Assembly: GCF_057098645.1 (NCBI RefSeq)
Contig: NZ_CM169472.1
DNA length: 64,000 nt
Direction: 5' to 3' (one strand)
Each line of letters starts with the position of its first letter. Position 1 is the stretch's first letter. Positions 24,001-27,000 of this stretch are shown piece after piece. Position numbers: made by a program.

Positions 24001-27000
24001 TGCCGTTCAGCAGGGACTTACCGACAGTAACCCGGCGCAGCATCTGGAAGGCGTTGTCTCCTCCCCCGTAAAGAATCACTACCCCGCGTTACCGCTGGAG
24101 CGGTTGTCCGAACTGCTTGGCCGCATCGGTGACTATCAGCAGGGCCGGGAGTTAACCCGGCTGGCGGTGGTGCTGACACTGCACCTGTTCATCCGTTCCA
24201 GCGAACTGCGTTTCGCCCGCTGGAGCGAGATCGATTTCAGGCACAAAATCTGGACCATCCCCGCCACCCGCGAGGCCATCGACAAAGTTCGGTTTTCGGG
24301 GCGTGGCGCAAAAATGCGTACCCCGCATATCGTACCGCTCTCCCGCCAGGCGATTGCCCTTCTGAAACAGATACAGGAGCTTTCCGGCCATCTGGATCTG
24401 GTGTTTCCCGGCGATCATAATCCGTACAAGCCAATGAGCGAAAACACAACCAACCGGGCGCTGCGCCTGATGGGGTATGACACGAAAACTGAAATCTGCG
24501 GGCATGGACTCAAGGCAATGGCCTGTAGCGCCCTGGTGGAGTCGGACCTGTGGTCACGCGATACGGTGGAGCGGCAAATGAGCCACCAGGAGCGCAACAG
24601 CGTGCGGGCGGCATATGTGCATAAAGCAGAGCATCTGGAGGCCAGAAAGGCCATGATGCAGTGGTGGTCGGATTATCTGGATGTGTGCCGCGAGGGGTAT
24701 GTTGCGCCGTACATTTATGCCCGGCAGCATAAGGCAGCCTGAATCAGAAATAGCGTAAATCATTAAAACCGGAAAAGCAGATCCTGATTGACCGGGATCT
24801 GTTTTTTTGTATTGAGAGGTATTGTTGCTGTTTTTGTTATTATTAATTGGGAAGCACCGAAAATTATTCCAGTAGAATATTTGCAGGCGACTGCCTATTA
24901 ATAAATGCATTATTGATAGATAACTACCTTCTGTGATTTGCCCGCAAATCACAGAAGATGAAAACCTATCAATACGGGATATTTTCACGGAAATACCAAT
25001 TAATACTCCAGAATATCTCCTGACCATATACTCTGAAACCTGTAAGAACTGCATCAGATATTGAGAGACCAGATAGATGTAAGTCTGAAATTATTTTGTT
25101 TCCAATGATTTCAGGCGAAAAACCTATCAATACATCTGTTTTCAATAGGCAGCCACCTTCCGTGATTAACATGTTAATCACGGAAGGTGAAAAGCTTTCA
25201 ATAATCGATATTTCCACGGTATTACCACTTAATACATCCCAAAAAATGCGCCATAAAATACCGGACAATCTTTCCTGATACACATTATCACTGCACCAGC
25301 TATACAGAGACAAAATAATCTGCACCCGTCCTGGATAATCTGCTATCTGCGCCAGCGTCCCGCCGCTCTACCTGTTCAGGGCTGCGCCAGTTCCTGGCCC
25401 TTTAGTTTTTGGCCCTTTCAGGTCAGGCGCTGTTACCCTTATCGCCCCCTTAACCTTTATGACCCTTTCCCTTTCTGGCGCAACCAGTTTATTTGGAAAT
25501 GCTCCATGACAGTCTGCACCAGACTGTATTTTCACCACAGGATAACGATCACAAAGTGCAAAAAATAACATGAAGCACCGAAGATTCTTAATTCATATGA
25601 AGCAGGTTATTATGCCAAAAACCGTCGCAGCATTTTTATAAAATCATGAGGCATCCTGAGACCATATAATATATGTCACAGGATACGGAAAAACACAGAG
25701 AGAATTATTCAGATATAAGCCTGCACCAAAATTAATGTGATGCCCCGGTGAATTTACATTTTAAAATTTCCCCAGCCCTGTAGTATTGGTAAAAATGAAT
25801 GAAACACCTGTTATCAATTGGAATCGTTTCGAGTGATTACAGGGTAATCACTATAATATCCCGGCAAACTATATTGGTTAAGCAGGAGAATCTGATCTGT
25901 TGATATTTATTCGTCATGCTGTAACGATATTTTCACAATATAAACCCGTTCGCCCCCTGCGCCAGATCCGGAACATAGGGTACGATAAATCGCTGTCGTT
26001 ACACAGTAACCGCATTATTTTGCGCCATTCATGAACTCAGTCATTCCTCCTTCCAGCGGTAGCCGTACACCTGTTTCACCCAGCGACCGCGACCGTCGCC
26101 ATGACCCAGATCCGTCGCCGTCAGCGCCAGTGACTCCTTTTCGCTGAATCCCTGTTCCAGATAATGGCGGATCGCATCCTGCGCCCATGCATAACGCAGG
26201 GAGTGCGGGGAAAATTCGCCTGTCAGCCCCACTTTAACCGCCTGTCTGTGCCAGTGATTCATGGCTGTTTTAAGGTCGGGCTTGTCGATCAGCCTGCTAT
26301 TGCATTGTTCTGCTGCAAGTAACGCTTTTTCAAGGGCTTTCCTGACTGCGCCAGTATCCAGGACTGTCGTATGGCGGGGACGACCGCCCTTGGTGCCAAA
26401 CACCACTTTCAGCCGGTTTTCCCCGCGTTCAATGGTTTTCAGCCACGTTTTCAGCGACTGTGAACTCTGTACCGCCTCCTGCGAACGTAGCCCCATCAGC
26501 CGCGCAATCTCCAGCACTGCCGCCAGCCCTGCGTCCTGAGTGCGGGCTTTCTCCATCACCTGCTGGTAATGTTCCGGCGTGATGGCGCGGCGCGTGCCGT
26601 TGCGCGAAGCGCCTGACACCCCTAATGCCTTATTGGTCAGACGCGGATGCTCCACCACCTGCCTGCGTTCAGCCTATCTCAGCACGGTCCGCAACGCTGC
26701 CATTCCGTTTTGCAGCGTTCGTAAACCAATATCCTGCTCCAGCCGTTCCTCAATGTAGCATTCGATATGGCGAACCTTGATCTGCTGCACCCGCTGGATC
26801 TGGATATTCAGCGCCCGTAAATGTTCACTGAACCGTTTGTAATATGGATATGGTCATTCACCGTTTTGAAGCTGCCGCCCGCTTTCTTCGCCAGCGCCTT
26901 CATTTCACTGCTTAATTTACTCATGAATCCCCTGCAACATAAACAAACAGTCTCCGGCGTGTGCTGTTTGGCTGCGCCAGAACGATACCTTCACGCCGGA

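What the first reader, a model, noticed from the sequence alone, without database searches (positions are those of the whole stretch)
26041..26924. Second tyrosine recombinase on the island is a pseudogene
The recombinase catalytic C-terminus is preserved as a 205-aa ORF, but the upstream in-frame sequence ends in a TAG and the only ATG with an N-terminal-like sequence is in another frame. The island thus once carried two recombinases, suggesting a composite or sequentially acquired element.
Basis: seen in the sequence. Interest (0 to 1): 0.3.

Follow-up and report, generated by a model that had tools for sequence, protein, structure and literature searches.

The report
Dead accessory recombinase gene on asnT island
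This is a real but ordinary pseudogene, already flagged in RefSeq: a small second recombinase gene on an E. coli O145:H28 genomic island, killed by a one-base deletion and a stop codon, and belonging to the island family's normal two-recombinase backbone rather than marking a merger of two elements.

Summary
Window 26041-26924 (minus strand) is a decayed 294-codon gene for a small Xer-like tyrosine recombinase (Pfam Phage_int_SAM_2 + Integrase_1). It has exactly two lesions against intact E. coli alleles. One A is lost from an A4 run (now A3, 26836-26838, codon 30). Codon 84 is TAG instead of CAG (26674-26676). Repairing both restores a full ORF with the catalytic R-K-HxxR-H-Y residues.

The window is E. 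coli O145:H28 RM12761. RefSeq already annotates these exact coordinates as [quoted passage not shown]. Twenty-six complete assemblies are identical across both lesions, and two unrelated poultry strains share them, so sequencing error is excluded.

The "composite or sequentially acquired" inference is not supported. The island has one perfect attL/attR pair and no internal att copy. The P4-type integrase and this gene lie collinear in 394 E. coli genomes (the gene region is found in 426). The same backbone recurs in Salmonella, Klebsiella, Citrobacter, Enterobacter and Lonsdalea.

The gene is always preceded by the Rfam EFASI motif, which is still intact here. The biochemical role of the intact recombinase is unknown.

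Verdict: already known, low interest.

The parts
26041..26924 (-). Pseudogene of a 294-codon Integrase_1 / Phage_int_SAM_2 family tyrosine recombinase (RefSeq ECRM12761_RS12760)
   Evidence: PGAP annotates 'frameshifted; internal stop' at the same coordinates. Aligned to the intact allele WP_000041048.1. Repairing the two lesions gives a 294-aa ORF.
26836..26838 (-). Lesion 1: A3 run where four of five intact alleles have A4 (the fifth has ACGAAGC, same length). This is a -1 frameshift in codon 30. Translation from the native ATG gives 29 native and 9 aberrant residues, then a stop at 26810-26808.
26674..26676 (-). Lesion 2: TAG at codon 84. Intact alleles have CAG (Gln) in four cases and CTG in one.
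26808..26924 (-). Residual 38-aa ORF starting at the native ATG
26041..26658 (-). Residual 205-aa ORF (residues 90-294). It holds the whole catalytic domain and the codons for R147, K179, H241, R244, H275 and Y287.
   Evidence: Pfam PF12835 E=2.3e-59; these columns are invariant in the alignment of 22 family members plus the repaired O145 sequence
26979..27107 (-). EFASI RNA motif (Rfam RF02957) directly upstream of the pseudogene, still intact
   Evidence: 94.1 bits against a gathering score of 51.2. EFASI lies upstream of the gene in all 9 other loci scanned, of which L013/L014 carry the same Klebsiella protein.
27108..27440 (-). Conserved non-coding leader upstream of EFASI. It includes three TCTGGTGCAG copies at 27-bp spacing (27254, 27281, 27308) and conserved hairpins.
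23243..23318 (+). tRNA-Asn (asnT), the integration site. attL core is 23303-23319.
23480..24742 (+). Primary island integrase, P4-type (Arm-DNA-bind_3 + Phage_int_M + Phage_integrase), annotated intact
36998..37014 (+). attR: perfect 17-bp direct repeat of the asnT 3' end. The island therefore spans about 23320-37014.
27734..28917 (-). Co-oriented backbone genes upstream: a HigA-like HTH_3 protein, a Ner-like HTH_35 repressor (28157-28411), and a 169-aa ORF with no Pfam or PHROG family match (28408-28917)
   Evidence: an HTH_35 gene in all five other genera and a 153-aa gene in Salmonella, Citrobacter and Enterobacter
28922..29106 (-). C4-type antisense RNA (28922-29008), with its a1b1 target motif (29054-29106) and an overlapping isrK-like match (29030-29093), at the head of the same strand's gene string

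Best explanation
The feature is a true, lineage-fixed pseudogene. Its ancestor encoded a 294-aa Xer-like tyrosine recombinase. That protein had an N-terminal SAM-like core-binding domain (PF12834) and a catalytic domain (PF12835) with the R-K-HxxR-H-Y residues. It had no arm-binding domain.

The gene is the accessory, second recombinase of a conserved island backbone in Enterobacterales. The order here is: tRNA attL, P4-type integrase, a 1.3-kb spacer, then the Integrase_1 gene reading back toward the integrase. Upstream of it on the same strand lie the EFASI motif, a conserved leader, HTH regulators, a 153-169-aa ORF and a C4-like antisense RNA. Variable cargo and attR follow.

In the O145:H28 copy, loss of one A in an A4 run shifts the frame in codon 30, and CAG to TAG ends the frame at codon 84. 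Translation from the native start therefore yields only a 38-residue peptide, so no recombinase is made (inferred from sequence).

The island's own mobility functions look intact: the P4-type integrase is annotated intact and the 17-bp att repeats are perfect. Loss of the second recombinase has evidently been tolerated (inferred). It has decayed by different lesions in other lineages too.

The native role of the intact protein is not known. My best guess, with low confidence, is an accessory site-specific recombination step acting on the element's own DNA. That could be resolution of multimers or of the excised circle, as small Xer-like recombinases do on plasmids. This idea rests on stand-alone homologues on plasmids, one of them about 2.6 kb from a replication initiator gene, which is only weakly suggestive.
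For: Identity and lesions.

RefSeq pseudogene call at identical coordinates.

Family assignment: PF12835 E=2.3e-59 on the residual ORF; PF12834 plus PF12835 on the intact allele; PHROG phrog_1 'integrase' E=2.6e-12; catalytic residues invariant in the family alignment and kept in the repaired O145 sequence.

Not a sequencing error: 26 assemblies are identical over both lesions, and the same lesions occur in MB30 and AHM8C212RI.

Conserved backbone: 394 E. coli genomes with the integrase and this gene collinear, against 426 with the gene region, plus five other genera.

Single att pair.

Decay by different lesions elsewhere: O166:H15 and Z142-2 have a frameshift and shortened genes matched in 2-3 pieces, and A22 has a frameshift. 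The gene is intact in AR_0061, EC17CM13, STLIN_13, A29, O121 RM8352 and OkiPb01708.

Plasmid homologues stand alone, one about 2.6 kb from a replication initiator gene.
Against: Nothing argues against pseudogene status. The weak points all concern function. No experiment or paper on this family's activity was found. The structure model of the catalytic domain was poor (pLDDT 63) and was not used. PF00589 and XerC/XerD models match only below their thresholds. An internal GTG could in principle give a catalytic-domain-only protein. Absence of protein was not measured.
Confidence: 0.95

Rival explanations
1. The gene is functional and is decoded through a programmed -1/+1 frameshift plus stop-codon readthrough.
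For: Only that the frameshift lies in a short A run.
Against: All six intact alleles seen in E. coli and all homologues from other genera are single uninterrupted ORFs of 290-294 aa. The five intact E. coli alleles checked at the nucleotide level have A4 (or ACGAAGC) and CAG or CTG at the two sites. Two independent recoding events would be required. A3/A4 is not a slippery heptamer. PGAP calls it a pseudogene.
Confidence: 0.01
2. The two lesions are sequencing or assembly errors in RM12761.
For: One lesion is a homopolymer-length change, a typical long-read error type.
Against: Twenty-six complete assemblies from different sources and countries are 100% identical across both lesions. Two unrelated poultry isolates, differing at 5-6 other positions in the gene, share both lesions. 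The TAG is a substitution, not an indel.
Confidence: 0.01
3. The island is a composite of two separately acquired elements, each of which brought its own recombinase.
For: Two recombinase genes of different subfamilies lie 1.3 kb apart. Plasmids carry the EFASI-Integrase_1 module without a P4-type integrase. More than 2,000 further E. coli genomes match only the integrase part of the query. The module occurs in either orientation relative to the integrase in different island lineages (versus 7, 30).
Against: There is one att pair and no internal att copy. The pair is collinear in 394 E. coli genomes against 426 with the gene region, at asnT or a neighbouring tRNA-Asn gene. It is conserved in five other genera with different cargo. 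Any fusion therefore predates the spread of the island family across these genera and says nothing specific about this island.
Confidence: 0.08
4. The 205-aa residual ORF is expressed from its internal GTG as a catalytic-domain-only protein with residual or dominant-negative activity.
For: The ORF is open, keeps all six catalytic residues, and its upstream leader and EFASI motif are intact.
Against: It lacks the whole N-terminal core-binding domain (PF12834, residues 1-91). Tyrosine recombinases need that domain to clamp DNA (established knowledge of the superfamily). The GTG sits immediately after purine-rich sequence without normal spacing. An open frame only 618 nt long is expected in a young pseudogene. 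No expression data exist.
Confidence: 0.04

Closest known systems
Pfam Integrase_1 (PF12835) / Phage_int_SAM_2 (PF12834) proteins, named 'integrase domain-containing protein' by NCBI (e.g. WP_000041048.1)
   Same: 92% nucleotide identity to the intact E. coli allele. Same length once repaired, same two domains, same invariant catalytic residues, same EFASI motif upstream.
   Different: This copy carries a frameshift and a nonsense codon, so it cannot make the protein.
EFASI RNA motif (Rfam RF02957), 'Enterobacteriaceae, Frequently Around STAXI and Integrases'
   Same: A full-length, high-scoring EFASI lies 55 nt upstream of the pseudogene's ATG. This matches the Rfam description of EFASI upstream of integrase genes, as quoted in PMC12370729.
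   Different: No STAXI motif was detected upstream in the window at E<=1, nor at gathering score in seven other chromosomal loci. Plasmid homologues do have it. In its place is a different conserved leader carrying TCTGGTGCAG repeats.
XerC/XerD chromosome-dimer resolvases
   Same: Similar size, two-domain layout without an arm-binding domain, and weak sequence similarity (TIGR02224 E=5.7e-6).
   Different: It scores 25.9 bits against a cut-off of 335, so it is not a XerC/XerD orthologue. It is island- or plasmid-borne, not a core gene.
P4-type tRNA-island integrases (as on HPI and pks islands at asn tRNA genes)
   Same: The neighbouring gene at 23480-24742 is of this type and sits by asnT with 17-bp att repeats.
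   Different: The pseudogene is not of this type. It has no Arm-DNA-bind_3 or Phage_int_M domain. More than 2,000 E. coli genomes match only the P4-type integrase part of the query and lack this second gene.

Membership tests
Pseudogene (disabled copy of a protein-coding gene) | Clear homology along its whole length to intact full-length genes | tested here: met
   Aligned end to end with the 885-nt intact allele at 92% identity. After repair the protein is 294 aa.
Pseudogene (disabled copy of a protein-coding gene) | Disabling lesions absent from intact homologues | tested here: met
   1-bp deletion at 26836-26838 and TAG at 26674-26676. Five intact alleles have neither.
Pseudogene (disabled copy of a protein-coding gene) | Lesions are real, not sequencing errors | tested here: met
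   26 assemblies identical over both lesions, plus 2 unrelated strains carrying both.
Pseudogene (disabled copy of a protein-coding gene) | No functional product made | not testable with these tools
   Needs proteomics or ribosome profiling.
Tyrosine recombinase superfamily | Catalytic residues R, K, HxxR, H/W and the Tyr nucleophile, in order | tested here: met
   R147, K179, H241, R244, H275 and Y287 are invariant in the alignment of 22 family members plus the repaired O145 sequence. R147 aligns with the 'GQR' arginine of lambda Int in a weak PDB hit.
Tyrosine recombinase superfamily | Significant match to curated recombinase models | tested here: met
   PF12835 E=2.3e-59 and PF12834 E=4e-39. 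PHROG phrog_1 integrase E=2.6e-12. PF00589 matches only below its cut-off (24.4 vs 27.1 bits).
Tyrosine recombinase superfamily | Two-domain fold (core-binding plus catalytic) | tested here: inconclusive
   The AlphaFold model is confident for the N-terminal domain only (mean pLDDT 63, catalytic half below 60). No fold search was run on it. No PDB relative at E<0.01.
Tyrosine recombinase superfamily | Catalyses site-specific recombination | not testable with these tools
   No experimental report on this family was found.
EFASI-associated integrase genes (Rfam RF02957 context) | EFASI motif immediately upstream on the same strand | tested here: met
   EFASI at 26979-27107 (-), 94.1 bits. The same holds in 9 other loci.
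EFASI-associated integrase genes (Rfam RF02957 context) | STAXI motif several hundred bp further upstream | tested here: not met
   No STAXI in the window at E<=1. It is present next to plasmid homologues. Rfam describes this association as frequent, not obligatory.
XerC/XerD | Reaches the NCBIfam equivalog cut-off | tested here: not met
   25.9 bits vs 335 (XerC) and 15.6 vs 330 (XerD).
Programmed-frameshift / readthrough gene | Recoding site conserved in homologues | tested here: not met
   Homologues are single ORFs. The lesion sites read ACAAAAC and CAG in intact alleles.
Composite / tandemly accreted island | Internal att copy or junction between the two recombinase modules | tested here: not met
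   Within the island, only attL (23303) and attR (36998) match the 17-mer at up to 3 mismatches.
Composite / tandemly accreted island | The two recombinase genes are not normally linked elsewhere | tested here: not met
   They are collinear in 394 E. coli genomes against 426 with the gene region, and both occur in the same locus in 5 other genera, the integrase there being intact, split or uncalled.

The most novel reading that the evidence does not exclude
The pseudogene itself is not new, but its module may be under-described. EFASI plus an Integrase_1 recombinase, together with a ~470-nt conserved and hairpin-rich leader, appears to form the fixed backbone of a widespread family of Enterobacterales tRNA islands. 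These islands carry swappable cargo such as defence systems, Rhs and T6SS genes. In E. coli and Salmonella loci, copies of TCTGGYGCAG lie in opposite orientation on the two sides of the gene. The second recombinase might act on those repeats or on the EFASI/leader structure. Possible outcomes are inversion of the module (it occurs in both orientations relative to the integrase), cargo exchange, or circle resolution. Because EFASI survives next to dead copies of the gene, it might also have a role of its own.
Probability: 0.15. Interest if true: 0.5.

Novelty: already known. Interest (0 to 1): 0.12.

Why it matters
For the assigned finding, it matters little. It is a correctly spotted pseudogene that RefSeq already annotates, in a Pfam family that is already defined, with an Rfam association (EFASI next to integrases) that is already recorded.

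Its practical value is as a caution. On this island family, two recombinase genes are the standard backbone, so they should not be read as evidence for a composite island.

It also shows that either recombinase decays readily. The accessory gene is dead here and, through different lesions, in other lineages. In several strains where the accessory gene is intact, the P4-type integrase is the dead one.

The wider module is functionally uncharacterised and could repay experimental work. It comprises the EFASI motif, the conserved leader, the repeats and a C4-like antisense RNA, placed next to variable defence or T6SS cargo.

Tried and rejected
(1) Structure route. AlphaFold2 on a 23-sequence alignment gave mean pLDDT 63, with the catalytic domain mostly below 60. 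I did not run a fold search on it, because low-confidence models give meaningless matches.

(2) PDB by sequence. There was no hit with the single protein. The profile gave only E~0.5 hits to lambda Int, usable only as a weak pointer to the Arg-I alignment.

(3) Literature. Searches for asnT islands, EFASI, PF12835/PF12834 and STAXI found no functional study of this recombinase family. The supplement of the paper that presumably first described EFASI (Weinberg et al. 2017; origin recalled from memory, the main text does not mention EFASI) is not held. The ROD21-like island paper does not mention a second integrase.

(4) STAXI. I looked for it in the window at E<=1 and in seven other chromosomal loci at gathering score and found none. 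The three 27-bp-spaced TCTGGTGCAG copies are not STAXI, and plasmid STAXI copies lack that 10-mer.

(5) A first search with a 23-nt tRNA 3' end found no attR. The 17-nt core then found it.

(6) I considered that the TCTGGYGCAG repeats are arm sites of the P4-type integrase. I rejected this because they lie 1.7-4.3 kb from the att core.

(7) I considered phase variation at the A run. I rejected it because A3/A4 is too short, all 29 carriers are in the same state, and the TAG would still block translation.

E. coli counts plus five other genera already answered the linkage question.
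Full report
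**Where the window comes from.** A 1.2-kb query around the finding matches the chromosome of Escherichia coli O145:H28 str. RM12761 (NZ_CP007133.1) at 100%. Record coordinate equals window coordinate plus 2,443,809. RefSeq/PGAP annotates record 2469850-2470733, which is window 26041-26924 on the minus strand. The entry is pseudogene ECRM12761_RS12760, 'integrase domain-containing protein; frameshifted; internal stop'.

**Checking the observation.** Three-frame translation of the minus strand and the ORF list show three pieces.
- A 38-aa ORF runs from the ATG at 26924 (MSKLSSEMKALAKKAGGSFKTVNDHIHIT, then 9 aberrant residues).
- A stretch in a second frame ends in TAG at 26676-26674.
- In that same frame, a 205-aa ORF spans 26658-26041.

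I aligned the region to an intact 885-nt allele from strain AR_0061 (protein WP_000041048.1, 294 aa). There are exactly two disabling differences.
- ACAAAAC has become ACAAAC, leaving an A3 run at 26836-26838 in codon 30.
- CAG (Gln84) has become TAG at 26676-26674.

Inserting one A and reading TAG as CAG gives an uninterrupted 294-aa protein. Five intact E. coli alleles carry ACAAAAC (one has ACGAAGC) and CAG (one has CTG) at these sites.

**Not chance and not error.** The 205-aa ORF matches Pfam Integrase_1 (PF12835) over the whole model at E=2.3e-59. The intact allele adds Phage_int_SAM_2 (PF12834) at E=4e-39. A 201-bp query spanning both lesions is 100% identical in 26 complete assemblies. 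Almost all are O145 or O145:H28/NM isolates, and they come from different sources and countries. Two unrelated poultry isolates, MB30 from Cuba and AHM8C212RI from China, differ at 5-6 other positions in the gene but carry both lesions. PGAP annotates both as 'frameshifted; internal stop'. The lesions are therefore real. They are not confined to O145:H28, because unrelated strains carrying this island variant share them.

**What the gene was.** An alignment of 22 family members from Escherichia, Salmonella, Citrobacter, Klebsiella, Enterobacter, Lonsdalea and others, together with the repaired O145 sequence, shows invariant R147, K179, H241-x-x-R244, H275 and Y287. This is the canonical tyrosine-recombinase set, and the repaired O145 sequence keeps all of it.

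Further family evidence:
- PHROGs assigns the intact protein to phrog_1 'integrase' at E=2.6e-12.
- PF00589 and the XerC/XerD equivalog models match only far below their cut-offs. This is a distinct small Xer-like subfamily, not XerC or XerD.
- It has no arm-binding domain.
- No solved structure is close.
- My AlphaFold model was too poor in the catalytic half to use.
- I found no experimental paper on the family.

**The island.** asnT lies at 23243-23318. A P4-type integrase follows at 23480-24742. It has the Arm-DNA-bind_3, Phage_int_M and Phage_integrase domains and is annotated intact. The 17-nt 3' end of asnT (23303-23319) recurs perfectly at 36998-37014, just before yeeJ. Nothing else inside the island matches, even at up to 3 mismatches. 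The island therefore spans about 13.7 kb, with one attL/attR pair.

Its cargo is a T6SS remnant: tssG, tssF, vgrG and a PAAR gene. Between the integrase and the cargo, all on the minus strand, lie these elements in order:
- a C4-type antisense RNA with its a1b1 target and an isrK-like match (28922-29106);
- a 169-aa ORF with no family match;
- a Ner-like HTH_35 repressor;
- a HigA-like HTH protein;
- a conserved non-coding leader;
- the Rfam EFASI motif (26979-27107, 94 bits);
- the pseudogene.

**Is the island composite?** Three tests argue against it.
- There is no internal att copy.
- A 3.6-kb query running from the integrase through the pseudogene is matched collinearly at 80% coverage or more in 394 E. 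coli genomes. The pseudogene region alone is found in 426. The pair sits at asnT or at one of the neighbouring tRNA-Asn genes around yeeO.
- Exact-protein look-ups for homologues place both genes, with an HTH_35 gene, in the same locus in Salmonella Enteritidis, Klebsiella, Lonsdalea, Citrobacter freundii and Enterobacter ludwigii. The Salmonella, Citrobacter and Enterobacter loci show the full arrangement: P4-type integrase, Integrase_1, ~0.9-kb leader, HTH_35, 153-aa ORF. The cargo is unrelated in each case: AbiE, an OLD-family nuclease, TerB, DarT with a NADAR-domain partner, TIR proteins, Rhs.

Two recombinases are thus the normal backbone of this island family.

An ancient modular fusion remains plausible. 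Plasmids of Erwinia and Klebsiella carry STAXI-EFASI-Integrase_1 without a P4-type integrase. More than 2,000 further E. coli genomes match only the integrase part of the query. That concerns the family's origin, not this island's history.

**Decay pattern.** Ten E. coli loci were inspected.
- The Integrase_1 gene is intact in six: AR_0061, EC17CM13, STLIN_13, A29, O121 RM8352 and OkiPb01708.
- It is disabled by at least three different lesion sets: the O145 type; O166:H15 and Z142-2, which are annotated frameshifted and have shortened genes matched in 2-3 pieces; and A22, which has a frameshift.

The P4-type integrase is itself a pseudogene in five of the ten, four of which keep the accessory gene intact. 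Neither gene is under strong maintenance once the island is resident.

**How it works.** Shown: from the native start only 29 native and 9 aberrant residues can be made. The rest of the gene is separated from that start by a frame change and a TAG. Inferred: no recombinase is produced. Also inferred: island integration and excision, if still active, rely on the intact P4-type integrase and the perfect att repeats.

The native role of the accessory recombinase is unknown. Stand-alone homologues occur on plasmids, and on pEB102 the gene lies about 2.6 kb from a replication initiator gene. I therefore favour, with low confidence, resolution of multimers or of the excised circle, or a similar reaction on the element's own DNA.

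**Side observations that could matter.**
- EFASI precedes the gene in all nine other loci scanned, chromosomal and plasmid. It is as well preserved next to dead copies as next to live ones.
- The 320 nt upstream of the ATG are as conserved as the coding sequence: 92-97% against 86-92% within E. coli, and about 74-76% against 73-78% between genera.
- That leader folds into several conserved hairpins with a few compensatory changes.
- The 10-mer TCTGGYGCAG occurs 8 times in the window against 0.32 expected. Seven copies lie within 25514-27657 and point in opposite directions on the two sides of the gene. One pair forms a 15-nt perfect inverted repeat, and three copies are spaced 27 bp apart.
- The pattern recurs in the Salmonella locus. 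The Klebsiella locus shows the upstream part of it, and Lonsdalea has only the copy next to the start codon.
- The module sits in opposite orientation relative to the integrase in some lineages, namely A22 and Lonsdalea.

These points are compatible with the recombinase acting on its own flanks, but that is untested.

**Verdict.** The composite-island inference is not supported. The finding is ordinary.

Noticed in passing
window 26979-27107 (-): A full-length Rfam EFASI motif (94 bits) lies 55 nt upstream of the pseudogene's ATG. EFASI was found upstream of the homologous gene in all 9 other loci scanned, next to dead and live copies alike.
   Followed up: yes
window 27108-27440 (-); alignment A4: The leader upstream of EFASI is conserved across six genera about as well as the coding sequence. 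It folds into several conserved hairpins with a few compensatory changes, for example alignment columns 132:181, 266:289, 271:288 and 513:560. It is not covered by any Rfam family. It sits where plasmid homologues have STAXI.
   Followed up: partly
window 25514-27657: The 10-mer TCTGGYGCAG occurs 8 times in the window against 0.32 expected, with 7 copies around the pseudogene. Copies point in opposite directions on the two sides of the gene. Three are spaced 27 bp apart (27254, 27281, 27308). There is a 15-nt perfect inverted repeat at 25513-25527 / 27304-27318. The two-sided pattern recurs in the Salmonella locus, and Klebsiella shows its upstream part.
   Followed up: partly
window 28922-29106 (-): A C4-type antisense RNA (75 bits), its a1b1 target motif and an overlapping isrK-like match sit at the head of the minus-strand gene string (169-aa ORF, HTH_35, HigA-like). 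This resembles a P1 immI-style control unit on a non-phage island. C4 matches also head the equivalent gene string in Salmonella L009 (with isrK) and E. coli O166 L006.
   Followed up: partly
L008 (E. coli A22), L012 (Lonsdalea) versus window, L009, L014, L022: The block containing the Integrase_1 gene, EFASI and the HTH genes occurs in both orientations relative to the tRNA and P4-type integrase in different island lineages (versus 7, 30, 32, 68). It is not known whether this reflects active inversion or old rearrangement.
   Followed up: partly
L002, L015, L016, L021, L007: Decay is often reciprocal. In four strains with an intact accessory recombinase gene, the P4-type integrase is the pseudogene (internal stop). 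In Z142-2 both are dead.
   Followed up: partly
L019 (Erwinia pEB102) 6148-8089; L020 (Klebsiella plasmid) 6160-6871: On plasmids the homologous gene stands alone, with STAXI then EFASI upstream. On pEB102 a second STAXI lies just downstream of the gene, and a replication initiator gene lies about 2.6 kb upstream.
   Followed up: partly
window 21084-22134 (+): A third tyrosine recombinase gene in the window is also a pseudogene. It is the frameshifted integrase of the lambdoid prophage inserted at tRNA-Ser (serU, 22162-22251), outside the asnT island.
   Followed up: no
window 29205-36532 and about 37328-44478: The island cargo is an incomplete T6SS set: tssG, tssF, vgrG, two hypothetical genes and a PAAR gene. 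The adjacent core adhesin gene (an Ig-like domain protein in the position of K-12 yeeJ, identified from memory) is annotated frameshifted.
   Followed up: no
L009, L011-L013, L022, L024: In other genera the same backbone carries anti-phage cargo: AbiE, an OLD-family ATPase-nuclease, TerB, DarT with a NADAR-domain partner, TIR/ThsB-like proteins, and HATPase_c_3 with Peptidase_U49. The backbone therefore seems to be a general carrier of defence and competition genes.
   Followed up: no
window 24743-26040: A 1.3-kb AT-rich, repeat-rich spacer separates the two recombinase genes. It includes an 18-nt perfect palindrome at 25154-25189 and a 42-nt imperfect one at 24900-24985. Its only annotated ORF has no family match. 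Salmonella and Citrobacter have an AAA_28-like gene in this position.
   Followed up: no
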